Positions 23,745 through 58,715 of a stretch of DNA of 62,881 nucleotides are shown here, piece after piece. Every line of letters begins with the position of its first letter. Position 1 is the stretch's first letter. Source of the stretch: Nostoc linckia z4 (GTDB taxonomy: Bacteria; Cyanobacteriota; Cyanobacteriia; Cyanobacteriales; Nostocaceae); contig NZ_LAHA01000035.1 of assembly GCF_002608075.1 (NCBI RefSeq), positions 14,453-77,333 of the forward strand, read 5' to 3'. The position numbers and the translations under genes were made by a program. The notes under the pieces were generated by a model. That model did no database searches. It saw only the letters and a list, made by a program, of their open reading frames with translations, and was not told the origin of the DNA.

Positions 23745-24692
<948 letters not shown>

Positions 24693-29116: not shown

Positions 29117-29240
29117 TTATCTAACAAAATTAGATGAAATCATCGGGTAAGAAAGGGTGGCTTCGAGAACATAGATAAAGGCGATCGCAACTGAGAAATT
29201 GCTGCATTCTCACGGTGTACGATCGCCATCAATCGCTAAA

Positions 29241-30779: not shown

Positions 30780-30916
30780 AGATAATTTGACCAGATTTAA
30801 TCAAAACATTTATAACCTCGCTGGAAACTAAATACCACCTATAATTCTGGAGTTGACAAACCTATAAATAAAGGTTGAAGGATTTGTTTGAGGTTTTGTA
30901 GTATTATATTACATTT

Positions 30917-31287
30917 TACTCTGCCGGCGCAGGTGTTTATAGTTTGGGATGCGGGCAAAAGCTTCTCCAGAACTGGATTAAGATTGCTGTTAGTTTTAAT
31001 AGACGGCTCAAAGGCAATCTAGAAAAACAGAACCGCGCTCAAATATGCCGATCGCTTTGCCAATCTAGAATTTCCGAAGTCAAAGCAGATATAGGAAAAC
31101 GAAGGTACATACTCAAGTTGGGGAGAGATTACAGTTGCGCTGGCTCCTTTACTGTTACGAACACCTGCATGACAGAGTACAAAAAACAAAAAGTTTTTTC
31201 ACTGGGTTTTTTTGAATCGCCCAATACATCTAGCTGTGACACTGCCTTGTCCCTAACAAGGTGCCCGTACCCAGGGCAGGGGTTTTT
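30917..31287 (-). ncRNA. structured non-coding region, module B body (homologue of 32604-32968)
   Basis: Patchy but strong conservation with module A (41-nt block with 1 mismatch, 30950-30990 vs 32634-32674; 31094-31155 vs 32761-32821). Many local hairpins. No conserved ORF. Strand inferred from the tRNA orientation. Confidence 0.5.
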
Positions 31288-31363
31288 TGGCTGAAAGTAT
31301 AGGAATCGAACCTATAATGAATCGGCGATACACCGATCGCTCTACCAAATGAGCTAACTTTCA
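31288..31363 (-). tRNA. tRNA-like cloverleaf with encoded CCA but non-canonical anticodon loop (UGUAUCG)
   Basis: Manual fold: TGAAAGT/ACTTTCA acceptor, GCTC/GAGC D stem, ATCGG/CCGAT anticodon stem, ATAGG-TTCGATT-CCTAT T arm, G-CCA. G at position 33 and C at position 37, so probably non-decoding. Confidence 0.6.
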
Positions 31364-31411
31364 TGGTGAAATAGTTGGAAGCATTAAGCGGTATACGCTA
31401 TTACCAGAGGT

Positions 31412-40909: not shown

Positions 40910-40937
40910 ATTGGTAATTCATATTCGTAAAAGCTAC

Positions 40938-41117
40938 TTAAAATTTTCTTTTGTCATCAGCAATATCTCCTTCAAAAGGTTGAACCCCGCTAGCTGGATA
41001 ATCATCATCCTTGGGTGCAAAAATTCTGCTAACAGCAGTTAATATGTAGTTGATGATTTTTCCGAAAAATTCTTGAATTGAGTTGATAAATTGCCGTATT
41101 TTTGTAGAAATTTTCAT
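40938..41117 (-). CDS. possible 59-aa small protein (MKISTKIRQFINSIQEFFGKI...)
   Basis: Manual translation, just below the track threshold. No family recognised. Confidence 0.3.
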   Translation of the reverse strand: MKISTKIRQFINSIQEFFGKIINYILTAVSRIFAPKDDDYPASGVQPFEGDIADDKRKF

Positions 41118-41576
41118 AAAATAATTCCTTGCTCAGACGTTTTCCATTTAACTTTCCCGTCAACAGTCAACAATCAACACTCAACAACCACCACAATTGA
41201 TTATGCTTTTTTAGCGTCCATTATTTTATACTTGCAAGCATCATATAGTAATCCGATTTGATTCCTGAAATTATCTGCGTAGGTAGGGAACAGGGAATAG
41301 GGAACAGGGAACAGAAAAGAAGGGTATAGATGTGTAATGAATCTTGTTCAAAAATCAAATAGGAGTCCTATACTTTATATACAATCAAAATAAATTATCT
41401 CTACTCCAAGAGTGAGTTTTGTGAGTAATTTAGTCAAAAGTATTAGTAATAATTTCCCTCCAAAGAAAGAATAAACTACCAAGGATGATAGCCAGAATTA
41501 GGTAGTTTAATCTAATGATTTGACAATAGTCAGTACTCTATCTGCCTCCGTTTGTGATGTGCGGGGGTCTTTTGCT

Positions 41577-43979: not shown

Positions 43980-44038
43980 TCAGCAGTCATCCGCCGATTA
44001 TATCAAGTCATGAATTTTAAATGAGAGAGGAATTAATC

Positions 44039-44560
44039 ATGGGACTTTTTTTTGAGGTTCTCAGTGCCATTAATAATCCCAATCAACGCGGAAATGTTAC
44101 TCAGTTAGAGTCAATTATCAACTCAATTCAACAAGTGGCAACTAGTCGAGGCATTCAACCATCTCAAATGCAAAATATTATGTCAGTTGTGGGTAATATG
44201 CTTCGTCCAGTACTTAGGCAGCAGCAGTCATTACCGGATGGAAATCAGTTACAAAATCTGATTAGTCAAGCTGGTAGTACTAGCACCAGTGGAGTGGGAA
44301 TGCAATCTTTACTCTCACCTCAGTTGCAGCAGCAAATTGTTCAAACAGTTTCCCAAACAACAAGAATCAGCCCGAATGTAATTGACGCTATTTTGCCCAC
44401 AATCATTTCAGCCGTACAAAGTATGCTCAGTATGGGTTCTACCAGTGGTGGATCTGTAAATTCAAATTCTATTTTGCATACTTTTTTAGATAGCGATCGC
44501 GATGGCGACACCGACTTAAGTGACGTTCTGAGATTTGGCGATCGTTTTCTTCATCCATAA
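44039..44560 (+). CDS. hypothetical protein (DUF937-like?)
   Basis: ORF with Met at 44039 (MGLFFEVLSAINNPNQ). Low-complexity Q/S-rich middle. Confidence 0.45.
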   Translation: MGLFFEVLSAINNPNQRGNVTQLESIINSIQQVATSRGIQPSQMQNIMSVVGNMLRPVLRQQQSLPDGNQLQNLISQAGSTSTSGVGMQSLLSPQLQQQIVQTVSQTTRISPNVIDAILPTIISAVQSMLSMGSTSGGSVNSNSILHTFLDSDRDGDTDLSDVLRFGDRFLHP

Positions 44561-44840
44561 TATACATACTGGGTTGCGATAGCGATGATTCCCACAGCCA
44601 TTGCACCCCACCCCTTGACAAGATGCAGCTGGTGAATAGAGGATGAGACCCCTCGTCGAGCCACAAATTGGTTTGTAGAGACGTAGCATTGCTACGTCTC
44701 TACATAGGGTGGAATGACTTCTGCAAGAAGTCAATTGTGAAGTTATTTTGCTGGTAATATAATATACGAAGTTTAATCCTTAACAGGTTATACAGTTGAA
44801 CAGATAGTTACAACTAATAATCTTATTTGTTAATAAACTT

Positions 44841-45488
44841 ATGCAGATAAATCAAGTCATTGAAACCTACGATCGCGGTGCGGTGGATTATGACGCAATC
44901 ATGAAGCGTTACTGGCACATTGAACGCGAACCGCTAATTGCTTCCTTACAGCTTCAGCCAGGACAAACCGTACTCGATGCTGCGGTGGGAACTGGTCTTA
45001 ATCTTAGTGCTTATCCCCAAGGAGTACATGTTGTCGGTGTCGATCTTTCTCATAAGATGATCGATGAAGCACGTGAAAAAACTGTATCCGCAGACATCAC
45101 CTTCAAGGTGTCGGATATCTGCAATTTAGATTTTCCTGATAATAACTTTGATGCAGCAGCATCGGGATTTACCCTGTGTGTTGTTGACGATCCCGTTCGT
45201 GCTTTGGAAGAAATTTTAAGAGTTACCAAACCTGGTGCTTTAATTGCCATTCTTGATTATTGCAAATCACGAGATCCAGAGATTGCAAAATGGCAAGAAT
45301 TAATATCTGATGCAGCCTCACAACTAGGTTTTCCCACTGACAAAATCAAGTGGAATGCATTGATGGATTATGACGAATTAATTTACAACAGTAAGCTGAA
45401 CATTGAAGTGCTGGTAGATAATCGCATAGAAAGTGCCAACCCATTTTCATGTGGTTGTCAATTACTATTGAAAAATTCCAAAGTTTAG
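44841..45488 (+). CDS. class I SAM-dependent methyltransferase
   Basis: Motif I VLDAAVGTGLNL and post-I VGVDLSHKM. Confidence 0.8.
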   Translation: MQINQVIETYDRGAVDYDAIMKRYWHIEREPLIASLQLQPGQTVLDAAVGTGLNLSAYPQGVHVVGVDLSHKMIDEAREKTVSADITFKVSDICNLDFPDNNFDAAASGFTLCVVDDPVRALEEILRVTKPGALIAILDYCKSRDPEIAKWQELISDAASQLGFPTDKIKWNALMDYDELIYNSKLNIEVLVDNRIESANPFSCGCQLLLKNSKV

Positions 45489-45674
45489 AAACTATTTATA
45501 ACGTAAATCTTAACTAGATGCGTTACGGCTGAACGCCTGACACACCGCCATACAAGATGGTGTGTTAGGCGCTTAGTTCATATTTTTCTTAACGGGGAAC
45601 AGGGAACTCTTAACAGACTTTGCTGTTGCCTGTTGCCCGTTCCCTGTTCCCTCTCCCGAAGGGAGTTGACAATT

Positions 45675-46046
45675 CTATACCTGTAAAAGAATTCGTGCTG
45701 CAATACCAGTCACATGATGAAGTGCATCTAGAAGTCTAGTTTCGTTTTCAGGTTTTTCTAATTCTTTATTCAAGGAATTAATACTTGCTTTTAAATCTGA
45801 TTGAAGCCTTTCAATTTGACCAGCAATTTTTTCCAAGATAGCATTCTCTATCTTAGCTATAGCGACAATTAAATCTCCTCTAGCTTGCACAAAAGATTTT
45901 GCTAAACACAAATTGGTTTCTGATGTGCAAATTAATATAACTTCTTCAAGAGAACCAAGCTTGAATTCAACATCTCTGAGTTCTTCAAGTAGTTCTTCTC
46001 TAAGAATATCAATTGGGTTTAGGCGTTCCGGAATAAAAGTAGACAT
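45675..46046 (-). CDS. small coiled-coil protein with hydrophobic C-terminus (paralogue of 46214-46597)
   Basis: ATG at 46046 preferred over the TTG at 46061. Shares the LQSDLKASINSLNKELEK / VTGIAARILL pattern with its neighbour. Confidence 0.5.
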   Translation of the reverse strand: MSTFIPERLNPIDILREELLEELRDVEFKLGSLEEVILICTSETNLCLAKSFVQARGDLIVAIAKIENAILEKIAGQIERLQSDLKASINSLNKELEKPENETRLLDALHHVTGIAARILLQV

Positions 46047-46213
46047 TTTTTCGATCCTCAAAAATTACAATTATTAATGCTTAAAGGTAAGTTGATAGTA
46101 CTTACGCATTGACCGAAAATTCCAAATGTGAATGAGTTTAAAAACCATATCTTTCGTATGGGTTTAGCATTGCTAAACCCAAACTAATTAGCTGATATAT
46201 ACCTTGAATATTC

Positions 46214-46597
46214 TTATCTAGCTAAAAGAACGATTCTTGAAACAATACCGATTACCCGCTCTATAGTTTGCAAAACTGTGATGGTATTTTCTAATTTTGC
46301 TAGCTCTTTTTTTAAGTTAGCAATGCCTGATTCTAAGTCTCCATTAAGTTTTTCAAGTCGTTCTGCAATACTGCCTATTGATGCATCTTGTAGCTTTCGT
46401 TTGCAAAGTATATAATCTTTTCTGGCTTCAAGATATCTTTTCCATTTAACTTCATCTTTATCATTTTCAAATTCTTTTTTAAATTTTAAGAATGTTCTAA
46501 CAGAATCTAAATCTACTTGTGTTTCTTCTAATTCTCTAAGCCGATTGTTTCTGATGTTATCTACATTAGTTAGACGACTAATAATTAGACTTGTCAT
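46214..46597 (-). CDS. small coiled-coil protein with hydrophobic C-terminus
   Basis: 127 aa. Starts 2 nt after the upstream stop. LNGDLESGIANLKKELAK ... VIGIVSRIVLL. Confidence 0.55.
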   Translation of the reverse strand: MTSLIISRLTNVDNIRNNRLRELEETQVDLDSVRTFLKFKKEFENDKDEVKWKRYLEARKDYILCKRKLQDASIGSIAERLEKLNGDLESGIANLKKELAKLENTITVLQTIERVIGIVSRIVLLAR

Positions 46598-46599
46598 AT

Positions 46600-47475
46600 T
46601 TACTCCTTGGTTTTTAATGTTTCAATTACAGATAAAAGATCTTCAATGTCTGTTAGTAATGCGTTAATCCGTCCACTACTAGACCGACCCTCTACAAAAT
46701 CTTGAAATATGTTTTGAAAATCTCCCAGTGCTTGACTTGCATTTTCAAGTTCTGCGGCAGTGAGTTCTTGAGTTAATAGTTCTCTGCGAGTAGCTATCCA
46801 TGTATCTTCATCAGCGATGGGTGTGGGTTGGAGCAATGGGTTAATGACAAGTCTTAGTTCTTGTCTATCTTGAATTCCCTTTAAATCACCTTTAATTTGA
46901 GTACTCAGAACATTGAGTAACTCTTGCTGTGTCTTTAATTCAAGCATAATAGTCTGATTGCGTTTTTGCAGTTCTTCTTTAAGAGCGCCCCGAATCTTAG
47001 AACTGACGATTAGTTTTCCTATACCTTGAAAAACCTCTTTATTTTCTATTAAGTTGCTTTCTCGTAAGGTCTGACCTATTGTATTTAAATTATCTACTAC
47101 CCCTCCAATAGCAGTTTGTGTTCGCTCAGGAGCATCAGACCCAGCTAAGTCCTGTAGTAATTTAAAATACTTACTCAGCAAGCTGTTGTGTTTTTTGAGC
47201 CGATTAATTAAGTCAATTCTATTACTATCTGAATCTGAAAATTCATTGTAATCATCAGATGTTTGATTATTTTCTCTGTCTTGTAATAAAAGTTCTTCAG
47301 AGCTTTCGTCAATTCGAGTTACAACAGCTAGATCTAATAGTTGGTTGAGAGCTTTGGAATAATTAGTTCCTGCCTGTGCTAGTTTTTTATATTCGTCAGT
47401 GGAACGACAAGCACTCAAACAAGTTGTGGCTATTGCTACAGCAATTATTATTGGAAAGTGAATTTTATTTTTCAT
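46600..47475 (-). CDS. putative lipoprotein, helical
   Basis: 291 aa. Signal peptide plus lipobox (IAVAIATTCLSAC). Coiled-coil-like remainder. Confidence 0.6.
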   Translation of the reverse strand: MKNKIHFPIIIAVAIATTCLSACRSTDEYKKLAQAGTNYSKALNQLLDLAVVTRIDESSEELLLQDRENNQTSDDYNEFSDSDSNRIDLINRLKKHNSLLSKYFKLLQDLAGSDAPERTQTAIGGVVDNLNTIGQTLRESNLIENKEVFQGIGKLIVSSKIRGALKEELQKRNQTIMLELKTQQELLNVLSTQIKGDLKGIQDRQELRLVINPLLQPTPIADEDTWIATRRELLTQELTAAELENASQALGDFQNIFQDFVEGRSSSGRINALLTDIEDLLSVIETLKTKE

Positions 47476-47551
47476 CTATTGTTTTCAAAGTTGCCCAAAA
47501 ATTATCGCATCAAATGTAGTTTTTGATTGAAAAATAGTAAAATAGATTAAA

Positions 47552-49222
47552 TTATCCATTTTTTAAATTCAGAAAATTTTGTCGAATCCACAATCTAAAT
47601 ATGCGTTTTAAAAGCCACTTTGTTAAGGGTTTTCCAATAAATATCCGGACATTCAGCTTAATAAAACTCCATAACTTAGATAAACGAGAACCATTATTTT
47701 TCATATCAAGCGGTTCTAGCCTGTCATTGATTAGATCCACCAAAGATTCTAAACGGAAGCTTAACTGATTTACAATTTCTTGACGTGTTTCTATGTCAAC
47801 CTCTGCCATTAACCTTCGTAATTCTGCAAGTTGATCTCGTTTGATGGCGTCATTATCTTGTAGTTGTTCTCCTTCTGGTGAACGAGGTTTTGCTAATTGA
47901 CTTAACTCTTTTTTTGCTTCATCCCAAGTATTTAAATTTTTATCGTTAACCTTACAATTAACTATCCACTCAAGAGGTGGCATTTTATTAAGTTCAAGGT
48001 TGAGTAAATCTTGGAGTTGACTCTTTGCTTGAAGATTGGACAGTTCAAATTGAGTGCGTTCCCGACCAATGTTGTAATCATAAGCCCGGAATTTCTTTTC
48101 AAGAAATCCAGCAAAGGCTGAGAAGACATCGCCAATTAACTCAAAGTCATTAGCTGTAATGGAAAATACTGGAGCATCCATTTCTTCCATAATCCAATCT
48201 TGGAAGCGAGACTGGTGAAAAATTGAACTCAGCAATGCAATTCCTGTTACCAAGAGATCGTTATCTTTTTTGATAAAAGGATTTTCGGGTAATTGGCGTT
48301 GACCTGGTGCAATATAAAGGTAATATCTTTTATCAGATAAATCTTGATTTTGATCGATGCGATCCACGAGGAGTTTAGCCATACCAATAGGCTCATTTTC
48401 AAAAACTCCACCATCTGTGTACAGATACTCCTCATTACGATCGCGACGCTTACCAAATCCACCAAAACGTCGAATTTTCCGAAGTTTAAAAGCGAAGGGA
48501 AATGCACCAGATGATAGACCGGCTTCGCGTAACTCACTCCAGTTAGTATCTCTAAGTTTTTTCCATTCTATTGACTCGCGTCCTGTTCTTGGATCTCTTA
48601 TTGTCTCTCGATCTATTTCATCAAGCGTCACATTCCCAAATCCATCGCGACGAGCTAGACACACAAATTGATCCTTATAACGGGTATATGCAAACTTTAG
48701 TGTTCCTTCTTTTCGGCCTTCACGAGCGTAATCAGTTGTAAGAGGGAAAGTATAGCCAGACAAGTTGGACATAGCTATACCAACATAAATCTCAGACGCA
48801 GCAGCCGGATGCTTTTGGTTGATTTGAACACGATCTTGCAGATATTTATTCCCAATTTTTTCAACAACTGCTGTTTGTAAAAGTGAGTATTTTTGATCTT
48901 CTTTTTCAACTTTAATTAATTCCCGAATATCAACTTCATCAACCCATGCATTGTAGAGTGGATTATTATATGGTTTGCGTAAAGACTGGTCTGGACGAAA
49001 GGGTGCAGGCTGATCGCCACAAAGAAGATGTTGGACTAAAATACAAGCCGTCATCCCACCCGCCGAAGCACCTGTAATTACATCAATTTCAATGGGTTCT
49101 TCATGATTTTTTATATCTTCGTTATGTCTGGCGATCGCTTCCAAAATTTCATACATAACGCCAGCTTCATAACTGCCAAGTGATACTGCTCCACTGATAA
49201 CAACGGCAAGCTTTTTGGGCAT
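47552..49222 (-). CDS. patatin-like phospholipase with extended C-terminal domain
   Basis: 556 aa. Oxyanion-hole motif SGAVSLGSYEAG, nucleophile GASAG, catalytic Asp motif YTDGGVFENEP. Confidence 0.85.
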   Translation of the reverse strand: MPKKLAVVISGAVSLGSYEAGVMYEILEAIARHNEDIKNHEEPIEIDVITGASAGGMTACILVQHLLCGDQPAPFRPDQSLRKPYNNPLYNAWVDEVDIRELIKVEKEDQKYSLLQTAVVEKIGNKYLQDRVQINQKHPAAASEIYVGIAMSNLSGYTFPLTTDYAREGRKEGTLKFAYTRYKDQFVCLARRDGFGNVTLDEIDRETIRDPRTGRESIEWKKLRDTNWSELREAGLSSGAFPFAFKLRKIRRFGGFGKRRDRNEEYLYTDGGVFENEPIGMAKLLVDRIDQNQDLSDKRYYLYIAPGQRQLPENPFIKKDNDLLVTGIALLSSIFHQSRFQDWIMEEMDAPVFSITANDFELIGDVFSAFAGFLEKKFRAYDYNIGRERTQFELSNLQAKSQLQDLLNLELNKMPPLEWIVNCKVNDKNLNTWDEAKKELSQLAKPRSPEGEQLQDNDAIKRDQLAELRRLMAEVDIETRQEIVNQLSFRLESLVDLINDRLEPLDMKNNGSRLSKLWSFIKLNVRIFIGKPLTKWLLKRIFRLWIRQNFLNLKNG

Positions 49223-49751
49223 TAATTTCCCTCACTTCATGTCTAAAAATTTAGAATAAACGGAATTTTTTTGTATAAATGCTTTTTTTGGGCAGTTTTT
49301 TAACACTTTTCCGTAGATTTCCTGATTGTATCAGCAATTATTTTTTTTAAAACTACAGATGTATTAAAAAATATTACACAGATGGTAATTGAATTTTAGA
49401 ATTTTTTTATATCTCTGGACATAGAAAAATAAGATGCCGCTCTGGAACTTATTTGCCAACAAGCATAGATAAATCAGGTTTAAAATATTCTCTAATGAAA
49501 TAAATAAAAAGAGTCTTGGGTTACTACATCCAAAAAAGCTGCTTTAGTAGATGTAAAATATAGCTAGAGGTAATTTAATAAAGTTAAAATAAATAAAGTT
49601 TTCTTTACACATGAATGCTTTTCAGACTAAAGCCAGTATTATTCTTAATAAAAAACAAAAAATATACATCAAAGTCATCAAAATTTTTAATTTATGAAAT
49701 TGTGGTGCGTTGCATTTGAGAACAAGACACCACAATCTACATCATTTAGTT

Positions 49752-50549
49752 TTACAAATGATTTTTAAACAATTCTAAAACATGTTGCCAAGCATCAGGA
49801 GCAGCTTCAGGATTGTAACTTGGATGTTGTTCCATAAATGGGTACTTATCTTTGAAAAATCCGGCGAAAAATCCGTGCCCGGCATCGTATCTAAATACAC
49901 GATGATTGATTTGATGTTTTTTTAATTCTGCTTCAATTTGTTCAGTTTCCTCCTGAGAAATAAATGTATCTCTTGTACCGAAAAAGGCATAAATAGTACC
50001 TTGAATTTGTGAAGTGCGATTAATAGTTGGAGTTTCTTCACCATAACTAGAAGTGGTAATTCCAGCACCGTAAAACGAAGCTGTAGCTTTGATATCCGGG
50101 AAAGTTGCAGCGATGTAAGCAACATGACCGCCAAAACAAAAACCAACGACACCAATGGCATCATGTTTAACATTGGGTAAAGTTTTTAAGTAGGCGATCG
50201 CCGCTTGAATATCACTTAAGATATCTTGATACTTTACTTGTTGATAGTATTCCAATCCCAGCCGATAGGCTTCTGGACTAAATCCAACATCTTCAGCACT
50301 AAGATCCGCTGCAAAACCAGGAGCAATCCGTTGATACATCGCGGGAGCTATTACTACATAACCTTGTTTAGCAATTAATTCAGTGATGTCTCGAATGTTA
50401 TTATTGATGCCAAAAATTTCTGGAAAAACGATAACGGCGGCAAAGGTTCCTTCATGTGCTGGTTGAGCTAAGTAAGCATCAATTTCTAAGTTATTGTTAG
50501 GTATTTTGACTTTTGCGGTGTTAATTTCGATGTTTGTGATTTCTACCAT
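49752..50549 (-). CDS. dienelactone hydrolase family protein
   Basis: 265 aa. Nucleophile elbow GFCFGG and C-terminal His (YDAGHGF). Confidence 0.8.
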   Translation of the reverse strand: MVEITNIEINTAKVKIPNNNLEIDAYLAQPAHEGTFAAVIVFPEIFGINNNIRDITELIAKQGYVVIAPAMYQRIAPGFAADLSAEDVGFSPEAYRLGLEYYQQVKYQDILSDIQAAIAYLKTLPNVKHDAIGVVGFCFGGHVAYIAATFPDIKATASFYGAGITTSSYGEETPTINRTSQIQGTIYAFFGTRDTFISQEETEQIEAELKKHQINHRVFRYDAGHGFFAGFFKDKYPFMEQHPSYNPEAAPDAWQHVLELFKNHL

Positions 50550-50948
50550 CTTTTTTCAGGTTATTTGATACCAACTTTTCTATTTTGGCTGTTTTTTGAC
50601 ACGGATGATAAACTGGCATTGCATTTAAGTCAGAAATGTTTTGGTGTTGATTGTTGACTGATGACGGTTGACTGTTGACAGTATGAGTGAGTGTATAATT
50701 TAAAAGTTTAATAATCTGCAACAAGCTAATTTTTTCCGTTTACACAGCAACCACAAGCTAGACGGTCGTATGATAAATCACACAACCAAGGCATGAAAAT
50801 ATTTATTTCTCAGTCAACAGTCAACATTGAATTTATAACTTTTGAATAGACAACATCTCGAACTTCTGGATGATACTAAGGGTTTTTGATTTGTGCGACC
50901 TTACAAAGGTAAGCATAAAGACTCAATATTAAGAAGCACAAAAAAACT

Positions 50949-51488
50949 ATGCCAGATCAAACATTTAGAGCAAACATACCAGAAGTTGACCCAACGGAGA
51001 TTGAAGATACTCGAACTGCCATCGCTGACGAACATCGTTCATTTTTAGAAAAAGTCATGGTGAAAGGTGGGTTTGCAGACATCTATGACGCCAGAGACTT
51101 TACCGAAGTTGTGTTTCGCGTCATGCGTGATTTGATGACAACAGAAGCAAGCGATCGCGTCGAGGGAGAACTGCATAAAGAAGCCGTATCTACCGATGAA
51201 AAAGCACTCCAGTTTGATATTGCCGATCTTTGGAAAGATACCAATCCAATTGTGGGATTTTTAAGCCGAGTTCGTCCACCCTGGCAAGGCCCTGGAATTT
51301 TCAAAATCGATTCCGATCGCTTTTTGTTCCGAGTTGCTAATGAAGGGGGCAAACCAGAAACAGTTGACCGAGAACAGGCAGTAAAAGCCGTATTTTCTGC
51401 CACCAAAGACGAACTTTCCCAAGAAAGAATTGAAGAAATTGCTAGTTGGCTACCTGACTATGTACGTCAGCTTTGGCAACAAGCTTAA
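50949..51488 (+). CDS. hypothetical protein (DUF2267-like?)
   Basis: 179-aa ORF with a clean start. Family assignment from memory only. Confidence 0.5.
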   Translation: MPDQTFRANIPEVDPTEIEDTRTAIADEHRSFLEKVMVKGGFADIYDARDFTEVVFRVMRDLMTTEASDRVEGELHKEAVSTDEKALQFDIADLWKDTNPIVGFLSRVRPPWQGPGIFKIDSDRFLFRVANEGGKPETVDREQAVKAVFSATKDELSQERIEEIASWLPDYVRQLWQQA

Positions 51489-51555
51489 TTACAAGTGTGA
51501 AAAAGTCAAGCCTGTTTGCAGTTGACGATAATTGCAAGCAGACTTTTTATATAAA

Positions 51556-51924
51556 TCACTCCGCAGACTTCACCGTTTGATTTGCCACCAAGCGTGGTTT
51601 CTTTCGTTCTGACTTACGCGTTCCACCAGCCATACCATATTCATCACTATTTTTGCCATAGCGAGACGCAACACTCAGCAGCATGTGTTCAGAATAATCA
51701 TTCAACACACGTTCAGCTTCTTCTAATGCATTCTGCGTTTTATCTATCATCGTTCGTGCTTGATTATGGGCGGCTAGCTTTTCTCGCAAATCCTGAATCA
51801 TAGTATTGTAACTAGTTATTGATAACCCATTACCAAAATCTAAGTCAGGCTTAATCGCCTGCATTCCTTCAACCCGTCGTTCAGCTTTCGTCAGTGCAAC
51901 TGAGTTTCGTCTGCGTTGCGGCAT
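51556..51924 (-). CDS. hypothetical coiled-coil protein (paralogue of 36699-37124)
   Basis: 122 aa. Colinear similarity to the 141-aa protein. Also preceded by a tandem repeat array. Confidence 0.65.
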   Translation of the reverse strand: MPQRRRNSVALTKAERRVEGMQAIKPDLDFGNGLSITSYNTMIQDLREKLAAHNQARTMIDKTQNALEEAERVLNDYSEHMLLSVASRYGKNSDEYGMAGGTRKSERKKPRLVANQTVKSAE

Positions 51925-52120
51925 AAAGTTTTCCTTTTTGGATTAATTTATAAAGAACGCTAATGTTCCTTGACACTGAGTTCTTTATATACCACTAAAT
52001 TACGCAATTAGCAGATGCACCAGCCTGAGTAAAGCTACATAATTTATAGAACATTCACAATACAGCATAAATACGGTTATATTTGCTGAAATTTTTGAAT
52101 ATTAAGGGATTTACGACTTG

Positions 52121-52294
52121 AAAACTTGATTTAGAAGTCCAAAACTTGATTTAGAAGTTCAAAACTTGATTTAGAAGTCCAAAACTTGATTTAGAAGTTC
52201 AAAACTTGATTTACAAGTCCAAAACTTGATTTACAAGTCCAAAACTTGATTTACAAGTCCAAAACTTGATTTACAAGTCCAAAACTTGATTTAC
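52121..52294. repeat. tandem repeat, 20-bp unit x ~8.7 (AAAACTTGATTTAGAAGTCC / ...TTACAAGTCC)
   Basis: Exact 20-bp periodicity. The first four units are of G type (alternating C/T at one position), the next four of C type. Confidence 0.92.
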
Positions 52295-52349
52295 CAGCAA
52301 GCTGTTGCACAGCACAGCCTAAATTAGGGATGCGATCGCGCTTATTTTC

Positions 52350-52685
52350 TCAGGCTACGCCATATTGCGTATATTGGCGCAAGTGTGATGGCTGTAGTCC
52401 TAAAACAATATCCTCTCTGGGTACTCCCATTTCAGTCAACTCTTGGGCAATTTGGATATCAGTCATATTACGCTGAATCCATATTTTTTCATCTTTAATA
52501 TCGAGATGTATCACACAATTATAAATGCGATCGTATCCATACCAGCCAATCTCTAAAATCTGGTAATGGTCTCGCGCTGTATCGAATATCAGTTGAATTT
52601 CAACATCTTCCTCTGAAGGTTGGTAACTGCTATATTTAGTTAATAACTTTTGAATATATTCACGATATTGGTCTAGCTTTGCCAT
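52350..52685 (-). CDS. xisI: XisI family protein
   Basis: 111 aa. Characteristic YREYIQKLL...DTARDHYQILEIGW...IHLDIKDEKIWIQ. Confidence 0.82.
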   Translation of the reverse strand: MAKLDQYREYIQKLLTKYSSYQPSEEDVEIQLIFDTARDHYQILEIGWYGYDRIYNCVIHLDIKDEKIWIQRNMTDIQIAQELTEMGVPREDIVLGLQPSHLRQYTQYGVA

Positions 52686-53089
52686 TGCACAATCACCTCA
52701 TCATTTGGATCGTAAACTATTAATTTAACTTGATATTCTTGTACTGAACTTTGGGCAAAGTCCCGGCTAAATAGCGATCTATACGTTGACAGTGGAACTG
52801 CTAGGAACAAAACTCTCTCAGGTTCTCTGAGTCGCAAAGCTAATCGATAATTGAGAAACTGCCCCAAAGCCGCATGGTAGTCAAAAAGTTCTGAATCCCC
52901 TAAAAAACTTTTGATTTCAACAGCAATTTTCTCTGTTCCTCGCTCAGCTGCTAAGATTTGTTCCGCACCTAAATCGATTGACATTTTATCTTTGCCAAAC
53001 TTAACCACTAGCGGATCGTGCGTAATAATCCACCCTTCTTTTTCTAGTCCCCGTTTAACGGCTTCATGAAAAATGTCTTTTGCAGACAC
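52673..53089 (-). CDS. xisH: XisH family protein
   Basis: 138 aa. Characteristic MSAKDIFHEAVKRGLEKEGWIITHDPL...AVEIKSF. Overlaps xisI by 13 nt. Confidence 0.82.
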   Translation of the reverse strand: MSAKDIFHEAVKRGLEKEGWIITHDPLVVKFGKDKMSIDLGAEQILAAERGTEKIAVEIKSFLGDSELFDYHAALGQFLNYRLALRLREPERVLFLAVPLSTYRSLFSRDFAQSSVQEYQVKLIVYDPNDEVIVQWQS

Positions 53090-53309
53090 GGACAGAACCA
53101 GAACCCAATAACCTTATGATACCGAACTATGATTATGCTGCATTGCACTTTGCGATAAATATAGGAGGAATGCGATCGCCTGCTGATACAATGAAGGTGC
53201 GTTGCCCTTTGCGACAACGCACCCTACATTAGAGATGCGATATTATAATTTGATTTCCTGTCTTATTAGAATTACCTCAAGATTCAGGATTGCTATATCG
53301 TTTACATTA

Positions 53310-54332
53310 TCATTCCAAAACTGTAGATGATGAGGATTTAGATACTTGAGTCATTTGATACTCGATCTGCGTAATTGCAGACATTATACTGTATTCATGC
53401 CCTTCTAATAGAGCATTTTTAATCTCTCTAACTTGCTCTAGGAGAGCTTTTCTAAGATATGGCTTTTGTTTAGATACGTAAGAATGATGACTCCAAATAT
53501 CAGAACCAATGATAAGAAATCCTGCTATCCAACCAGCAGCACACTTCGCTGCAAATGATGTTATTGCCTTGCCTAATCCTGCTTTAAGAGCAGTTTTACA
53601 GCCTAACTTCGCTAAAATTTTAGTGGCTTGTTTGCCGACATAAGCAATAAATTCTGTAGAAGATAATGTCATTTTCATGCCATATACTGCGCCTGTTATT
53701 GCCATGTCCTTTCCCCCCTTTTCAATCCAATATGCGATGTTACTAAACTGATAAATAATTCCCCCTTTTTCATAAGTTATCTTGCTGAGTTCCATGCTTA
53801 ATTCCTGAAACTCAACATTAGAAAGTTCATACTTGCATTGAATTTCCATAAAACCTTTTGCTAGTTCTACTGCATAAACATCAACCGTCTGTGTGAGTAT
53901 ATTCTGCATTTTTCTTTCCATCTGAGTAGGTGATAAAATATATACTTCAATCTTTTGTGCAACTTCTGTCTGTAGTGACTCTTTAGAAATAAGAGACATT
54001 AGACCTATTTTCTTTTGATAAAAATAATCAAAATATTCTTCCATGAAAACTTCTATATTTGGTTGCAGAGATTGAATCCACTCTTCTAAATGCTTATCTG
54101 CAAAGTCCTTGGCTTTAATTTTTGATTTCTCAAAAACAGCTAAAATTTCTTCAAGGAATTTCTCGCGGCTAAAATGTCTGTTAACTCTGTGCTTTTTATT
54201 TGAACCGCCAGGATTGTCTGACAAACTATATCGAGCAGTAAACAAGTAGATAAAGCACCAAAATATCAATAACATGGCTGTACCATAGCCTAGTACACTG
54301 CCGAAGGAATCAAGAAAATGGGAAAGCATCAC
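53310..54332 (-). CDS. hypothetical membrane protein
   Basis: 340 aa. N-terminal TM (GYGTAMLLIFWCFIYLF) and C-proximal hydrophobic segment (CAAGWIAGFLIIG). AT-rich. Confidence 0.55.
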   Translation of the reverse strand: MMLSHFLDSFGSVLGYGTAMLLIFWCFIYLFTARYSLSDNPGGSNKKHRVNRHFSREKFLEEILAVFEKSKIKAKDFADKHLEEWIQSLQPNIEVFMEEYFDYFYQKKIGLMSLISKESLQTEVAQKIEVYILSPTQMERKMQNILTQTVDVYAVELAKGFMEIQCKYELSNVEFQELSMELSKITYEKGGIIYQFSNIAYWIEKGGKDMAITGAVYGMKMTLSSTEFIAYVGKQATKILAKLGCKTALKAGLGKAITSFAAKCAAGWIAGFLIIGSDIWSHHSYVSKQKPYLRKALLEQVREIKNALLEGHEYSIMSAITQIEYQMTQVSKSSSSTVLE

Positions 54333-54527
54333 TTACTCGTAATGAATTACGCAGATAGCTTACCAAAACACTGATTTCGGAAGTTTCGGGAGAAAGGTAG
54401 TCCGCACTCAACTACTCCTACAAGGATTTCCAGACCTCAAGAACAAAAAATCCTTAGGTTCTCATGAGGTTTTTTCGTAAATTTTTTGTAAATTTTTTAT
54501 AAATTTTTATTAAAAATGGGGGCTAGG

Positions 54528-56225
54528 TTAATCTTGAAGGAAACGTAACAAGTCTGAATTTTGTAAAAAGTAACTAAAACTAGGATGATATAACCTATAG
54601 TGCAACTTTCCGTCCACTTCTTGTTTATATAGAAACTGTTTCCACTCCTCTAGTATTAACTGAAGTTCATATTGAGATTCAAATAAAGAAACCATATCAG
54701 TGAAAGATATTAGGCTAACATGACCTGAACTAGCATTAGCTAACTTACGAAGAAGCCGCTTGTGTCTGATATCACTTTTGTGATTAATATTCATACGGCG
54801 TAAATGACTCTCGTAATACCCTCTCAAACCTTCTGGAAGATTATCAAGACTATCCAAGTTTTTATAAACGCCTCGCTCAATATCTACTAATACATTTTTT
54901 AAATACCTAAAGTTTCTTTGACTTTTAAGTGTAAGAGTTTCAATAAGTTTTTCTTCACTTTCAAAAAGTCTTTCTTCACTACATGTTTTATCATCTTGTG
55001 AAGTGCGAAGCTTTTCTCTTCTGTCTAAATACTTTTTGATATATGTTCTACAATCTTCCTTCCATGTGTCACCAATAAGGCAGCTAATATCTTCTATCAT
55101 TAAAGGCACTTCAATTTCTAAGAAAATATTTTTTGGACGCTGAGACATAAAGAAAAAAATACCTTCTGGAAGATATTCCGGCAATTTTAGTATATTTTCT
55201 GACTCGTTGCTTAAATATACTTCGTCCAAAGCATCTATGACAATAACTAACTGTGACTTGTGCTTATGTAAAACTTTTTTACTTATCTCCTCAAGTAAAC
55301 TATTAAGTAGCGAAATATCAACATTTTCTAACTTTTCTTTAAAATGTCTTAGTTGATCATAATATTTATGATATAATTGGTTACAAATACTTTCTAGAAA
55401 ATCATAAATCTGGTTAAGTCCTTGGGGTTGCTGTACAAAAAAACAGGGACATTTATTTTCTAATACATACTTAGCTAGTATTGCTGTTTTTCCAACTCCA
55501 GGATCGCCCTGCAATATAAAATATCCTTGTGAATGATCTTTTTGAAATTTTTTAAATCTCTCAATAATATCTTTTCTTTCAATAAAATCTTCTGGATCTG
55601 TATGGTACTTAATTAAAGTCTGAAATTCTAAAGGAGGTTCAAATATATTGCTATTAATAAAGGAATTTGAATTGCCAAAAAATTCATTTTCATAACGTTC
55701 TTTTAGGGATTTAATAGTTTCATCGTTACTTTCGCTGATAACAATATTGTTGACAGTAAATCTCCAATCTTTAGACCCCTGCCTTGTAGATTTATGGCGA
55801 TCATCTTTTAGAAGTTTGTGTTCATCTGCATCCTTTATTACGTCTCCAAGTGATTTAATTACAGTTTCCTTTTGAAAATCGTTGGATATATCAGGATAAT
55901 TTTTACAAAAATCCTGTGATTCTTGTGAGCATATTGAATTTTTTACATACGAATTAACTAGATTTTCTAAATTTTTTAGAGTGCAACAAACTTCAATAGT
56001 TTTATTCCTTATATCATCACTAATGTTTCCCTTGAAATCCGGATATGGTTTATTTTCATCCTCACCTTGATTGCGAATGTAGTCTTTTAATGCCATAATA
56101 AGTAAAATAGCCCGTTGCATTTTTTTGTTACTAATTTTTCTGTCTTCTTTCGATGCGTTCATATTTGATAATATATATAAATAAGAGTTTGCACATTTTT
56201 TAGGTAAGTATATATAAATATACAT
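54528..56225 (-). CDS. STAND/NACHT-like P-loop NTPase with unknown N-terminal domain
   Basis: Walker A GDPGVGKTAILAKY, Walker B LVIVIDALDEV. Likely start at Met 56162 (MNASKEDRK). AT-rich, no HIP1 seen by eye. Confidence 0.7.
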   Translation of the reverse strand: MYIYIYLPKKCANSYLYILSNMNASKEDRKISNKKMQRAILLIMALKDYIRNQGEDENKPYPDFKGNISDDIRNKTIEVCCTLKNLENLVNSYVKNSICSQESQDFCKNYPDISNDFQKETVIKSLGDVIKDADEHKLLKDDRHKSTRQGSKDWRFTVNNIVISESNDETIKSLKERYENEFFGNSNSFINSNIFEPPLEFQTLIKYHTDPEDFIERKDIIERFKKFQKDHSQGYFILQGDPGVGKTAILAKYVLENKCPCFFVQQPQGLNQIYDFLESICNQLYHKYYDQLRHFKEKLENVDISLLNSLLEEISKKVLHKHKSQLVIVIDALDEVYLSNESENILKLPEYLPEGIFFFMSQRPKNIFLEIEVPLMIEDISCLIGDTWKEDCRTYIKKYLDRREKLRTSQDDKTCSEERLFESEEKLIETLTLKSQRNFRYLKNVLVDIERGVYKNLDSLDNLPEGLRGYYESHLRRMNINHKSDIRHKRLLRKLANASSGHVSLISFTDMVSLFESQYELQLILEEWKQFLYKQEVDGKLHYRLYHPSFSYFLQNSDLLRFLQD

Positions 56226-56381
56226 AAAAAATTATTATACATTTAGTCTTTGAATAAACTCTTTGCTTTATATTTACTTTACAAATAAAATTCAACAGGT
56301 TTATCAATGATTATTTTAGAACGAGTTTTTTACCTGACGGGGCAATAAGCACCTCAGAATCCTTATCATGTATAAATTTAA

Positions 56382-56600
56382 CTATATGAACTGATTGCGT
56401 GTTATTGTCGCATCTGTGATGCTAATACTTCCACTGCGCGATCGCCTCGTAATTGCTGCTATAATTTCCACACCAGTTATTGCAGCAATAAATACCTCAT
56501 TGTTGAGAGTTGGATCGAATAAGCCTAACACCCAAGCAGATCCAGTTTCACTTATATAACGCTTAACTAATGCGCTACTATCTATGAAGTATCTTGCCAT
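56382..56600 (-). pseudogene. vapC: truncated PIN-domain toxin vapC (N-terminal half only)
   Basis: 72 aa (MARYFIDSSALVKRY...AAITGVEI...). Stops after ~half of a normal ~135-aa PIN domain, and no continuation is seen downstream. Confidence 0.6.
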
Positions 56601-56873
56601 TTAACGGCGTTCCTCAATGATAGTTTCAGAGACAGGCTTTCCCTCGACCTGAATTAGTCTTCGTTCAGCTATTGGTTCGTAAGCAAAATGCTTAATTTGC
56701 TTTACTAAGCCAGAATCGATTAAAGCTTGGTGAAATGCTGTTTGCTTAAGATTTTCCTCTTTAACAGCAAGATACTTTTGAATTGTTTGGCTAAGTTGTT
56801 GAAGCTCTGTTGTTTCCAGTGTCTCAAGTTGCTTAAGTATTTGGTTTAAGGTTTCTAGTGCCATACCTTTCAA
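56601..56873 (-). CDS. antitoxin partner of truncated VapC
   Basis: 90-aa ORF abutting the vapC fragment start. Confidence 0.5.
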   Translation of the reverse strand: MKGMALETLNQILKQLETLETTELQQLSQTIQKYLAVKEENLKQTAFHQALIDSGLVKQIKHFAYEPIAERRLIQVEGKPVSETIIEERR

Positions 56874-57049
56874 ATAATTATTGCTTTTATAGAGTTTTTT
56901 GCTTAACAGTTGAATTTAATAAATCTAAAATTTAGATACACTTAGCTCGAATATCTAACAAAGTGGAAACCTATACAGATGAGTTACTATAAGCTTATAT
57001 TAGTAGTAAATTTGACAATTGAACACACTACACAAAATTTTTTAACAAT

Positions 57050-58351
57050 TCAACTTCGCTTATAAACGATTTCCATTTTCAACTTCTCAACCTCTAATCT
57101 CAACTTTTCATTTTCCATTCTCAATTTAGCATTTTCTTCCCTAATTAACTCAACTTCATTCCTCTTACTCAACGCCTGATTCATTGCTAACTTTCGCATA
57201 TCTAGCGAAAACCATCGCTGATAAGTTTGCGTGTGAACTTGGACGCTATGACCTAGATTATCTGCTGCTGCTTTAATTGGAATTCCTAAAATATGCGCTC
57301 GAATTGCCCAAGCGTGGCGTAAATCATAAGGCTTAAAATCTAAGCCGATTTTACGAAACCACCAACTGACTCGTTGTGTTAATGCCGTGATTTCTGCATA
57401 ATTAGTATTATCTTTTTTACTAATTGCCGTTGCCAGCATTTCTAAATATTTGGGATTCCTTAAATCAAATTCCTCAATCCATTGTTTATATAAAGGTAAA
57501 GCTTCTCTCTCGCCAGTCTTACAATCTTTATGAACCTTCCAGGTTAAATCCAAATTTTCTTGACTTAACCACCAATCGATGTCAGGATTAATAAAAAGCT
57601 CGCGCGGTCGTAAACCGAAAACTGCTAACATTCCATAAGTCCAGCGCCAAAGCTGCCAGCTATCTTGGACATTTTGGTTAACTTGATTGCCTCTGGTATT
57701 TAAGTATTGTTCAAACTTGCCAATCCCCTCAGCTATTTCTGCATCAGTCGGTATATTGCGGGAATTATTCTCTGGCATTTTGGAGTATTTTGATAAATCG
57801 ATTTCGATTTTGAACGTCTGACAAAATACAGCGATCGCTCTTGCTGCATTATACTTAGACCATTCCTTATCGATTCTTTCAATCGCATTTATCAAATTCT
57901 CAGAAGTCGCCAAATCAGCAGGATTAGTAAATCGCTTAGTTCGGGAAATATAATAAAAAAAAGTATGTTCGCTTTTAGTCGTCCGTTTGTGAGTTTTAAA
58001 ATATTCATCTTCAAATTTTTCCAGCAATTCGCCAATTGTTTTACAATCTTTTTTAATTGCCTCATTGCCTAAATATTTTTCATTCCATGCAAAAGTTTTA
58101 CGAGCAATTAACTTTCCTAACTCATAAGCTTCTTCCTCAGCCGTTTTTAACCCATCCAAATTAGCAGGAATATTCAAGCTGAGATTGTATTGCTTTCTAC
58201 CAGTGCCATTTTTATCCTTGTCCCCAGGTTTAATCGGTAACGTAGCGCGTAATTGCAGACTTCCATTAGATTCTCGAATTGTTACCTTAGTCTTTGCAGA
58301 CTTCAAACGCAGATTTACCGTCTCTAATTCCAGTAATACTTTTGATTTCAT
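57050..58351 (-). CDS. xisA: nifD-element site-specific tyrosine recombinase XisA
   Basis: 433 aa. Integrase motifs RPRELF, YDLRHAWAIRA, LGHSVQVHTQTYQRW. N-terminus (NGSLQLRATLP) resembles Anabaena XisA. Located at the inner right border of the element. Confidence 0.9.
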   Translation of the reverse strand: MKSKVLLELETVNLRLKSAKTKVTIRESNGSLQLRATLPIKPGDKDKNGTGRKQYNLSLNIPANLDGLKTAEEEAYELGKLIARKTFAWNEKYLGNEAIKKDCKTIGELLEKFEDEYFKTHKRTTKSEHTFFYYISRTKRFTNPADLATSENLINAIERIDKEWSKYNAARAIAVFCQTFKIEIDLSKYSKMPENNSRNIPTDAEIAEGIGKFEQYLNTRGNQVNQNVQDSWQLWRWTYGMLAVFGLRPRELFINPDIDWWLSQENLDLTWKVHKDCKTGEREALPLYKQWIEEFDLRNPKYLEMLATAISKKDNTNYAEITALTQRVSWWFRKIGLDFKPYDLRHAWAIRAHILGIPIKAAADNLGHSVQVHTQTYQRWFSLDMRKLAMNQALSKRNEVELIREENAKLRMENEKLRLEVEKLKMEIVYKRS

Positions 58352-58704
58352 GTGTTCTGTTTACAGCTTTGCAGACTTGAAGCGAAATAATTCGTAATTT
58401 AAGACTCTTGATTGCGGGCATTGCTGAATTCTTACTCTCTGCGACTCTCTCTTGAAAAGTTCAGATGCCTGCGGCAAGCCCCTTCGGGTCTACGCCGGAA
58501 GCCGGCGCTCCGACTTTTCGCTGCGTCTGTGCGTGAGTAAACTCATATTTTAAATCAGCAACACATAATTACAAATTACGAACTACGAATTCTCCTTTAG
58601 CCTATATTTAGTCTAAAAATAAATGCGTTCTCAACGAACAATGTTTAATTCTGACATTGCTCATTGCAAACATTAACCCCTCTAAAAAAATAAAAGCATT
58701 AAAA

Positions 58705-58715
58705 GGATTACTCCG
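58705..58715 (+). repeat. right 11-bp recombination core GGATTACTCCG
   Basis: Identical to 26206-26216. Confidence 0.9.

What the first reader, a model, noticed from the sequence alone, without database searches (positions are those of the whole stretch)
53310..56225. AT-rich STAND/NACHT-like NTPase with unknown N-terminal domain next to a membrane protein
The 565-aa ORF has Walker A GDPGVGKTAILAKY and Walker B LVIVIDALDEV. It carries a ~220-aa N-terminal region with no motif I recognise and a short helical C-terminus. This architecture is reminiscent of Avs/STAND-type sensors, but without obvious repeat sensors. A 340-aa protein with terminal hydrophobic segments lies 196 nt downstream on the same strand. 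Both genes are markedly AT-rich and lack HIP1 by eye, unlike the neighbouring xisHI and xisA genes. Recent acquisition is therefore likely.
Basis: partly seen in the sequence, partly recalled or inferred. Interest (0 to 1): 0.5.

Follow-up and report, generated by a model that had tools for sequence, protein, structure and literature searches.

The report
Sensor-less STAND ATPase in nifD element
The flagged gene is a real but fairly ordinary bacterial "immune-switch" ATPase with a recognisable adaptor domain; it arrived by horizontal transfer into the DNA element that Nostoc cuts out of its nitrogenase gene, and the membrane-protein gene beside it is most likely just a neighbour.

Summary
Both ORFs exist and the Walker A/B motifs are exact. 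The NTPase most likely starts at 56162 (544 aa, not 565). Its residues 175-544 model confidently as a STAND NBD-lid-winged-helix module resembling MalT, Apaf-1, CED-4 and Cdc6. The "unknown" N-terminus is a divergent EAD4 adaptor domain, borderline in Pfam. A clear EAD4-STAND paralogue with the same layout sits on a Nostoc linckia NIES-25 conjugative plasmid.

Sibling proteins carry HEPN, TIR, caspase, kinase, CHAT or other EADs at the same N-terminal position. They often have a WD40 sensor in a separate, immediately downstream ORF, and this protein has none.

The 2-TM neighbour has only one homologue in 5.8 billion proteins, and that homologue is not beside a STAND. The closest STAND relatives have different neighbours, so the pairing is unsupported.

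Only the STAND gene is strongly AT-rich (30.5% GC), and this holds across its small clade. The HIP1 gap is not significant.

The locus lies inside a 32.5-kb nifD excision element of Nostoc linckia that also carries a type II R-M system, a retron-type RT and a patatin. This is a new member of a known kind, of modest interest.

The parts
54528..56162 (-). EAD4-like STAND NTPase gene (544 aa plus stop). The mechanical ORF extends to 56225, but the homologue-supported start is 56162.
   Evidence: It is 100% identical to P0001 (VF14_14260, Nostoc linckia z18), and the N-termini align with the homologues.
55692..56126 (-). N-terminal EAD4-like adaptor domain (residues 13-157).
   Evidence: Pfam PF19959 EAD4 scores 26.1 bits in the full-length protein and 28.6 bits for the isolated domain, against a cut-off of 27. 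The match covers profile positions 3-121 of 123. The bona fide EAD4-STAND paralogue L041 has its EAD4 at the same position. The AF2 model is low-confidence in this region.
55182..55559 (-). P-loop nucleotide-binding domain (NPHP3_N/NACHT-like, residues 202-327). Walker A lies at 55485-55508 and Walker B at 55218-55250.
   Evidence: Pfam NPHP3_N E = 6e-13, 49.8 bits against a cut-off of 24.8. G222, G224, K225, D310, D313 and E314 are invariant in 54 homologues.
54531..55088 (-). Helical lid plus winged-helix domain (residues ~359-544). No sensor repeats follow.
53310..54329 (-). Two-TM, otherwise helical ORFan protein (339 aa; TM1 54234-54308, TM2 53502-53567). Probably an unrelated neighbour.
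   Evidence: There is only one homologue, P0056 at 62% identity, in a STAND-free context. No hits in Pfam, PADLOC, NCBIfam, PHROGs or PDB.
54333..54527 (-). 195-nt AT-rich spacer with three 11-nt tandem repeats (54471-54514) and a hairpin. No clear terminator or promoter.
   Evidence: fold z-score 0.11.
56382..56873 (-). vapB-like antitoxin (56601-56873) and a truncated PIN/vapC (56382-56600; 72 aa of about 154) immediately upstream of the STAND gene.
   Evidence: The same break point is present in Aerosakkonema L004.
26206..58715 (+). nifD excision element (32,499 bp between the starts of the two 11-bp direct repeats GGATTACTCCG). It contains the whole finding.
   Evidence: Repeats found. In-silico excision restores a 500-aa NifD. 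xisA lies at 57050-58351. nifH, nifD' and nifK are identified.

Best explanation
The ORF at 54528-56162 encodes a minimal STAND ATPase (P-loop NBD, helical lid, winged helix). It carries a divergent EAD4 adaptor domain at the N-terminus and has no sensor repeats.

It belongs to a cyanobacteria-centred family of conflict-system STANDs. In that family the N-terminal slot holds either an effector (HEPN, TIR, caspase, kinase, CHAT) or an effector-associated adaptor domain (EAD1/7/10/4). Many members have the WD40 sensor in a separate, immediately downstream ORF.

Inferred mechanism: the protein rests as an ADP-bound monomer. A trigger, or recruitment through its EAD4 domain by another EAD4-bearing protein encoded elsewhere in the genome, allows ATP-dependent oligomerisation. 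The clustered EAD4 domains then nucleate or activate an effector assembly, playing the role that CARD/Death domains play for Apaf-1 and CED-4.

The gene is AT-rich, horizontally acquired cargo of the 32.5-kb nifD excision element of Nostoc linckia, which also carries other defence genes. The adjacent 2-TM gene is most likely an unrelated neighbour.

Shown here: the fold, the motifs, the family architecture, the context, the composition and the lack of conserved pairing. Inferred: the defence role, EAD4-mediated recruitment and the nature of the trigger.

For: EAD4. The isolated domain scores 28.6 bits against a cut-off of 27, with full profile coverage, and 2 of 5 clade members hit it. BAY80500.1, on the N. 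linckia NIES-25 conjugative plasmid, has EAD4 at 4e-20 in the same position and the same 550-aa layout. It is 33% identical over residues 118-540, with the alignment running into the C-terminal part of EAD4.

N-terminal slot. Siblings carry EAD10, EAD7/EAD1, NNH5, caspase, TIR, Swt1-HEPN, kinase, CHAT or DUF4062 there.

Split WD40 sensors occur in L015, L018, L019 and L040.

The EAD concept, and STANDs as EAD-coupled components, come from PMC7159879.

Mobility and foreignness. The clade genes have 30-32% GC against 40-46% in their flanks in all three loci. Relatives sit beside TraG/VirD4 and TrwC or on plasmids.

Defence context in the element. Type II REase/MTase and retron-type RT_XIII, and a patatin.

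No conserved pairing with the membrane gene.
Against: The EAD4 match is borderline: 26.1 bits in the full-length protein, and no hit for P0003 or P0004. The AF2 model of the domain is low-confidence, and hhalign against the bona fide paralogue's EAD4 is weak, though in register.

An exhaustive profile search of 1.84 billion proteins found this N-terminal domain only in the same small STAND clade. No effector carrying a recognisably identical domain is known.

There is no EAD4 elsewhere in the window. The rest of the N. linckia genome could not be searched.

No PADLOC or NCBIfam defence model claims the protein. No experiment supports a defence role for this family.
Confidence: 0.55

Rival explanations
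1. This is a two-gene system. The STAND ATPase is the switch, and the downstream 2-TM protein is its membrane-disrupting effector or a CED-9-like membrane-anchored regulator.
For: The genes are adjacent on the same strand. In sibling loci the gene immediately downstream of the STAND is a functional partner, the WD40 sensor. Both genes use ATA for 31% of Ile codons, unlike the core nif genes. The STAND lacks its own sensor and effector.
Against: A 195-nt spacer separates the genes, whereas sibling pairs have overlapping or near-abutting ORFs. GC differs: 30.5% against 35.2%. The only other homologue of the membrane protein, among 5.8 billion proteins, lies between TA modules and housekeeping genes with no STAND. 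Its GC equals that of its flanks. The closest STAND homologues have different downstream genes (L002: Zn-ribbon/SNase-like, then a GTPase) or none (L041). The two proteins share no domain (hhalign probability 0.1). The 13 contigs that carry both genes are near-identical N. linckia loci and so give no independent support.
Confidence: 0.12
2. This is an orphaned remnant. The clade descends from split [N-domain-NBD-lid-WHD] + [WD40] systems and has lost the sensor partner. The gene would then be inert, or retained only as selfish cargo.
For: Four sibling loci have a WD40 ORF immediately downstream, and this locus, L002 and L041 do not. The clade is tiny, with five proteins, and one of them (P0057) is truncated at 294 aa. 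The gene lies beside a decayed vapC.
Against: The ORF is intact, with every catalytic and structural motif conserved. Four full-length members at 35-40% identity keep the same length and architecture. The well-conserved EAD4-STAND paralogue on the NIES-25 plasmid is also sensor-less, which suggests that the sensor-less layout is a maintained design.
Confidence: 0.2
3. The gene plays a role in the biology of the nifD element itself, such as excision control or maintenance, because it sits between xisA and xisHI.
For: It lies inside the element, 0.8 kb from xisA and 1.4 kb from xisH. PMC4874684 reports an unidentified ATPase gene found exclusively in nifD elements.
Against: Identical copies occur only in N. 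linckia. Homologues at 40% identity or less lie in non-nif contexts, namely a conjugative element, a plasmid and an IS-rich contig. XisA alone is known to suffice for nifD-element excision; this rests on established knowledge (Brusca et al. 1990, listed in the reference list of PMC4874684). The ATPase of that paper is conserved in six elements, which this gene is not.
Confidence: 0.05

Closest known systems
EAD-coupled STAND NTPases of the conflict systems of multicellular bacteria (Kaur, Burroughs, Iyer & Aravind 2020, PMC7159879). The closest concrete example is BAY80500.1 on Nostoc linckia NIES-25 plasmid3.
   Same: The N-terminal EAD4, the NPHP3_N-type P-loop, the TANC1-like lid and the winged helix. 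The length is similar (about 545-550 aa), there are no C-terminal repeats, the host is cyanobacterial and the location is a mobile element.
   Different: The EAD4 here is highly divergent and borderline in Pfam. The gene is far more AT-rich (30.5% against 41.7% GC). No EAD4-bearing partner has been identified.
Apaf-1 / CED-4 apoptosome ATPases
   Same: An adaptor domain followed by an NBD-HD-WHD module. They are among the best structural matches. Like CED-4, this protein has no repeat sensor.
   Different: The N-terminal adaptor is EAD4-like, described as mixed alpha+beta in PMC7159879, and is not a CARD. There is no HD2. Sequence identity is about 13-14%. The partner and the trigger are unknown.
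Avs (AVAST) and other bacterial NLR-like anti-phage STANDs
   Different: There is no C-terminal TPR-like sensor. PADLOC STAND_TPR and Avs1b, and NCBIfam Avs1b, match only about 160 P-loop residues at scores far below the family cut-offs.
Split cyanobacterial [effector-NBD-lid-WHD] + [WD40] gene pairs (siblings found here: L015, L018, L019, L040)
   Same: The same NTPase family at 28-38% identity, with the same domain order and the same size of NTPase ORF.
   Different: Those loci have a WD40 ORF immediately downstream, overlapping or separated by a short gap. This locus has a 195-nt spacer followed by an unrelated 2-TM ORFan.

Membership tests
STAND NTPase superfamily | Walker A GxxxxGK[ST] and Walker B hhhhD[DE] in a P-loop NBD | tested here: met
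   GDPGVGKT occupies residues 219-226 and LVIVIDALDEV residues 305-315. These positions are invariant in 54 homologues.
STAND NTPase superfamily | NBD followed by a helical lid and a winged-helix domain | tested here: met
STAND NTPase superfamily | Conserved histidine near the WHD that contacts ADP (the MHD-like switch residue) | tested here: inconclusive
   H453 is invariant in all 54 sequences. Its position relative to the nucleotide could not be checked, because the model has no ligand.
Pfam NPHP3_N (PF24883) | Score above the gathering threshold | tested here: met
   49.8 bits against 24.8.
Pfam NACHT (PF05729) | Score above the gathering threshold | tested here: not met
   22.6 bits against 26.7. 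The protein is NACHT-like but is not claimed by the NACHT model.
EAD4 (PF19959; Kaur et al. 2020) | Sequence match to the EAD4 profile | tested here: met
   The match is borderline. The isolated domain scores 28.6 bits against a cut-off of 27, while the full-length protein scores 26.1. The match covers profile positions 3-121 of 123. Two of five clade members match. The paralogue L041 scores 73 bits at the same position.
EAD4 (PF19959; Kaur et al. 2020) | [quoted passage not shown] | tested here: not met
   hhalign of the N-domain profile against the membrane protein gives probability 0.1. No EAD4 was found in any other window ORF scanned.
EAD4 (PF19959; Kaur et al. 2020) | Further EAD4 copies elsewhere in the same genome | not testable with these tools
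The clade profile found only the same STAND clade among 1.84 billion proteins, but that search is too stringent to detect distant EAD4 members.
Avs / AVAST | C-terminal TPR-like sensor domain and a family-level HMM score | tested here: not met
   The protein ends after the WHD. PADLOC Avs1b scores 17.9 bits. NCBIfam Avs1b scores 13.8 bits against a cut-off of 1500.
Two-gene STAND + membrane-effector system | Conserved co-occurrence of the two genes in independent genomes | tested here: not met
   P0056 is solitary. L002, L013 and L041 lack a homologue of the membrane protein.
XisA-type nifD excision element (context) | 11-bp direct repeats GGATTACTCCG at about nifD position 1355, xisA at the nifK-proximal end, and excision that restores nifD | tested here: met
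   The repeats lie at 26206 and 58705, with the first at nifD nt 1353. The restored NifD is 500 aa. xisA is identified.

The most novel reading that the evidence does not exclude
The sensor-less EAD4-like STAND and the 2-TM ORFan form a previously undescribed CED-4/CED-9-like pair. In this reading a membrane-anchored protein holds, or is activated by, a minimal STAND switch. Because the pair sits on the nifD element, it is physically removed from the chromosome in terminally differentiated heterocysts. A suicide-type immune module would then be developmentally uncoupled from the cells that must not die.
Probability: 0.07. Interest if true: 0.6.

Novelty: new member of a known kind. Interest (0 to 1): 0.27.

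Why it matters
The result turns an "unknown N-terminus" into a testable adaptor hypothesis, namely EAD4-mediated recruitment. It adds a rare, very divergent, AT-rich clade to the EAD-coupled STAND family.

It also shows that many cyanobacterial relatives encode their WD40 sensor as a separate, immediately downstream ORF. This bears on how NLR-like switches can be split into parts.

The more interesting point is the context. A 32.5-kb nifD excision element is loaded with defence-type cargo: a type II R-M system, a retron-type RT with its own tRNAs, a patatin, a STAND and TA modules. This suggests that these developmentally excised elements act as defence islands. No paper in the searched library combined defence-island or anti-phage terms with the nifD element, and a survey of such elements does not mention restriction or defence.

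Tried and rejected
(1) PADLOC, NCBIfam and PHROGs scans of both proteins gave no family-level hit.

(2) Profile searches of the PDB with the membrane-protein profile and the N-domain profile found nothing.

(3) AF2 of the membrane protein from a 2-sequence alignment gave pLDDT 49.6, which is too poor for a fold search.

(4) I tested whether the STAND gene (or the gene pair) was inserted into vapC, and rejected the idea. The same break point after 'RNQF' is present in Aerosakkonema L004, where an out-of-frame C-terminal remnant shows an internal deletion. The downstream sequences of the two loci are unrelated.

(5) A repeat search across 52900-56950 found no transposon ends or target-site duplications around the genes.

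(6) The TA pair upstream of P0056 is not homologous to the window's vapBC'.

(7) The C-terminally Gly-rich GTPases near relatives (L004, L002) are not similar to the membrane protein. The L004 STAND is unrelated.

(8) Scans of viral contigs for both proteins gave no relatives. A metagenome scan found only distant NBD-only relatives.

(9) tblastn against plasmids found no match for the membrane protein, and only a self-match for the bona fide EAD4 domain.

(10) A word-indexed search with the N-domain profile returned nothing, not even the query proteins themselves, so it is uninformative.

(11) The supplement of PMC7159879 contains no EAD4 sequences.

(12) The afdb50 fold library was unavailable.

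(13) The scan for promoters and terminators, and the fold of the intergenic spacer, were no better than shuffled controls.
Full report
**Where the finding lies**

The window comes from Nostoc linckia. The NTPase is 100% identical to VF14_14260 of strain z18 and occurs on 13 near-identical contigs.

nifH (23799-24692) and a 5' part of nifD (from 24854) lie upstream. nifK (59138-60673) and nifE lie downstream. The 11-bp sequence GGATTACTCCG occurs exactly twice, at 26206 and 58705. Joining the sequence at these repeats restores a 500-aa NifD.

The finding therefore sits inside a 32,499-bp XisA-type nifD excision element, inserted at nifD nt 1353. This is the common '1355' variant described in PMC4874684. 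xisA lies at 57050-58351.

**Checking the observation**

Both ORFs are real, and the two quoted Walker motifs are exact. Several details need correcting.

- **Start codon.** Homologues and the deposited protein begin at the ATG at 56162, giving 544 aa.
- **N-terminal domain.** It is about 175 aa, not about 220.
- **C-terminal part.** The last 185 residues are a confidently modelled lid plus winged helix.
- **Membrane protein.** It has TM segments at residues ~8-32 and 255-276.
- **Base composition.** The STAND gene is the most AT-rich 1.6-kb stretch of the window, at 30.5% GC and within the lowest 1% of windows. The membrane gene, at 35.2%, is only at the 17th percentile.
- **HIP1.** A 3.26-kb HIP1-free gap has P about 0.11, and larger gaps occur elsewhere in the window.

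**What the NTPase is**

Pfam assigns the P-loop region to NPHP3_N (6e-13). The AAA_16, AAA_22 and NACHT models also match the region; of these only AAA_22 clears its cut-off.

AF2 with a 54-sequence alignment gives pLDDT mostly above 85 for residues 175-544.

Seventeen columns are invariant across the 54 homologues, including Walker A, Walker B and H453. This is an intact STAND switch of the form NBD-lid-WHD, with nothing after the WHD.

**The N-terminal domain**

Pfam EAD4 (PF19959) matches residues 13-157 across essentially the whole profile. The score is 26.1 bits in the full-length protein and 28.6 bits for the isolated domain, against a cut-off of 27. A second clade member also hits EAD4, and no competing family appears.

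The best independent support came from a tblastn search of plasmids. Nostoc linckia NIES-25 conjugative plasmid3 encodes BAY80500.1, a 550-aa protein. It has an unambiguous EAD4 (4e-20, residues 9-157) followed by the same NTPase module. It is 33% identical to the window protein over residues 118-540, and the alignment runs into the C-terminal part of EAD4.

The evidence is not clean. The AF2 model of the domain is poor. hhalign against the single paralogue sequence is weak, although in register.

An exhaustive profile search of 1.84 billion representative proteins found this version of the domain in only four proteins, all from the same STAND clade. I treat the domain as probably EAD4.

**The family**

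The 54 homologues are mostly cyanobacterial proteins of 450-700 aa. They share the NBD-lid-WHD module at 25-40% identity.

Their N-termini differ. Among them are Swt1-HEPN, TIR, caspase, protein kinase, CHAT, DUF4062, NNH5, HTH, EAD10 and EAD7/EAD1. The N-terminal position is therefore the effector or adaptor slot.

This matches the EAD scheme of Kaur et al. (PMC7159879). In that scheme, one EAD copy on a core or NTPase component pairs homotypically with copies fused to effectors.

I also found that in four sibling loci the NTPase ORF is followed immediately by a separate WD40 ORF. These are L015 (an APAF1_C ORF, then a WD40 ORF), L018, L019 and L040. The WD40 ORF overlaps the NTPase ORF in L018 and L019 and starts 41 nt after it in L040.

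This is a split, Apaf-1-like design. More distant metagenomic relatives are long ORFs of 750-1500 aa, whose C-terminal regions I did not examine.

The EAD4-type members have no such partner. This holds for the window, for L002 and for L041.

**The membrane protein and the proposed pairing**

The 339-aa protein has one homologue among 5.8 billion clustered proteins, P0056 at 62% identity. That gene lies between TA modules and housekeeping genes, with no STAND nearby. Its GC matches that of its flanks.

The closest STAND homologue with usable context, L002, is followed by a Zn-ribbon/SNase-like ORF, a small ORF and a GTPase. P0057 sits next to a TraG/VirD4 gene.

The two window proteins share no domain. 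Their genes differ in GC and are separated by 195 nt.

The sample is small, which is why I keep the two-gene rival at 0.12.

**Acquisition**

The EAD4-like clade is AT-rich relative to its flanks in all three available loci: 30.5% against 40.3%, 32.1% against 42.0%, and 31.4% against 45.5%. Most other family members are not.

Relatives occur on conjugative or mobilisable plasmids and next to T4SS coupling-protein and relaxase genes.

Foreign origin and mobility of the NTPase gene are thus supported. The truncated vapC upstream is not a scar of this insertion.

**Mechanism**

The following are shown: an intact STAND switch, a probable adaptor domain in the effector slot, the absence of any sensor, and a defence-rich, mobile context.

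The following are inferred: ADP-locked monomers oligomerise on ATP binding, and the clustered EAD4 domains then recruit or activate an EAD4-tagged effector. Alternatively, the protein is itself recruited by an EAD4-bearing core system encoded elsewhere. This would parallel CARD-mediated assembly in Apaf-1 and CED-4 (PMC7159879 and PMC8195603).

Confidence is about 0.85 for the identity of the protein and about 0.45 for the mechanism.

**Comparison with known systems and verdict**

The protein is not an Avs protein. It has no sensor, and the family HMMs fail. No PADLOC model claims it.

It fits the already described class of EAD-coupled STAND NTPases. UniRef already names it a nephrocystin-3-like N-terminal domain protein.

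It is a new, divergent member of a known kind, and the specific claim of a partnership with the membrane protein is unsupported. Interest is modest at 0.27.

The context is the more noteworthy by-product. A developmentally excised nifD element carries a type II R-M system, a retron-type RT flanked by tRNA genes, a patatin and this STAND.

Noticed in passing
window 26206-58715: The 32.5-kb nifD excision element looks like a defence island. It carries a type II REase (27015-27677) and MTase (27674-29116), an SPFH protein (29241-30779), a retron-type RT_XIII (31534-32586, minus strand; PADLOC 9.6e-150), a patatin (47552-49222) with two small downstream ORFs, TA remnants and the STAND. All of this is excised from the heterocyst chromosome. 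No paper in the searched library combined defence-island or anti-phage terms with the nifD element.
   Followed up: partly
window 31288-31363, 32969-33044, 33046-33121 (minus strand): Three tRNA genes inside the element flank the retron-type RT: one tRNA-Ile(TAT) and two tRNA-Met(CAT). The element's cargo genes (STAND, membrane ORF, MTase, REase, RT) use ATA for 24-31% of Ile codons, against 0-4% in nifH/D/K. The element may therefore supply the tRNA that decodes its own AT-rich genes.
   Followed up: partly
window 15410-16811: A CRISPR array of 20 repeats of 37 nt (Rfam CRISPR-DR5) lies between a Crp-like regulator gene (14594-15322) and nifB (18304-19749). No cas genes were seen in the window.
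   Followed up: no
window 56382-56600; L004 10001-10250: The vapC (PIN) gene is cut after the same codon (…RNQF) in Nostoc linckia and in Aerosakkonema sp. BLCC-F183. The retained 71 residues are 94% identical at the protein level but only 82% identical in DNA, across the whole vapB-vapC' region. L004 keeps an out-of-frame 'ENPNNYP*' C-terminal remnant. A half-PIN may therefore be conserved together with its antitoxin.
   Followed up: partly
L015 6001-10153; L018 5001-9124; L019 5001-9675; L040 5110-9824: Cyanobacterial relatives of the STAND are 'split Apaf-1-like' pairs. An effector/EAD-NBD-lid-WHD ORF is followed immediately by a separate WD40 beta-propeller ORF, which overlaps the NTPase ORF in L018 and L019. 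In L015 a small APAF1_C ORF lies between the two.
   Followed up: partly
L004 10250-10780: Two direct copies of about 300 bp, each with strong internal hairpins (MITE-like), lie directly downstream of the truncated vapC in Aerosakkonema.
   Followed up: no
window 54471-54514: Three tandem 11-nt repeats (AAAAAATTTAC-like on the minus strand) sit in the spacer between the STAND and membrane genes, followed by a 10-bp-stem hairpin without a T-run.
   Followed up: no
window 6080-9448 and 10794-14528: A LanM-type lanthipeptide synthetase (DUF4135 + LANC_like) and a 1244-aa TPS-domain (two-partner-secretion) protein lie upstream of the nif cluster.
   Followed up: no
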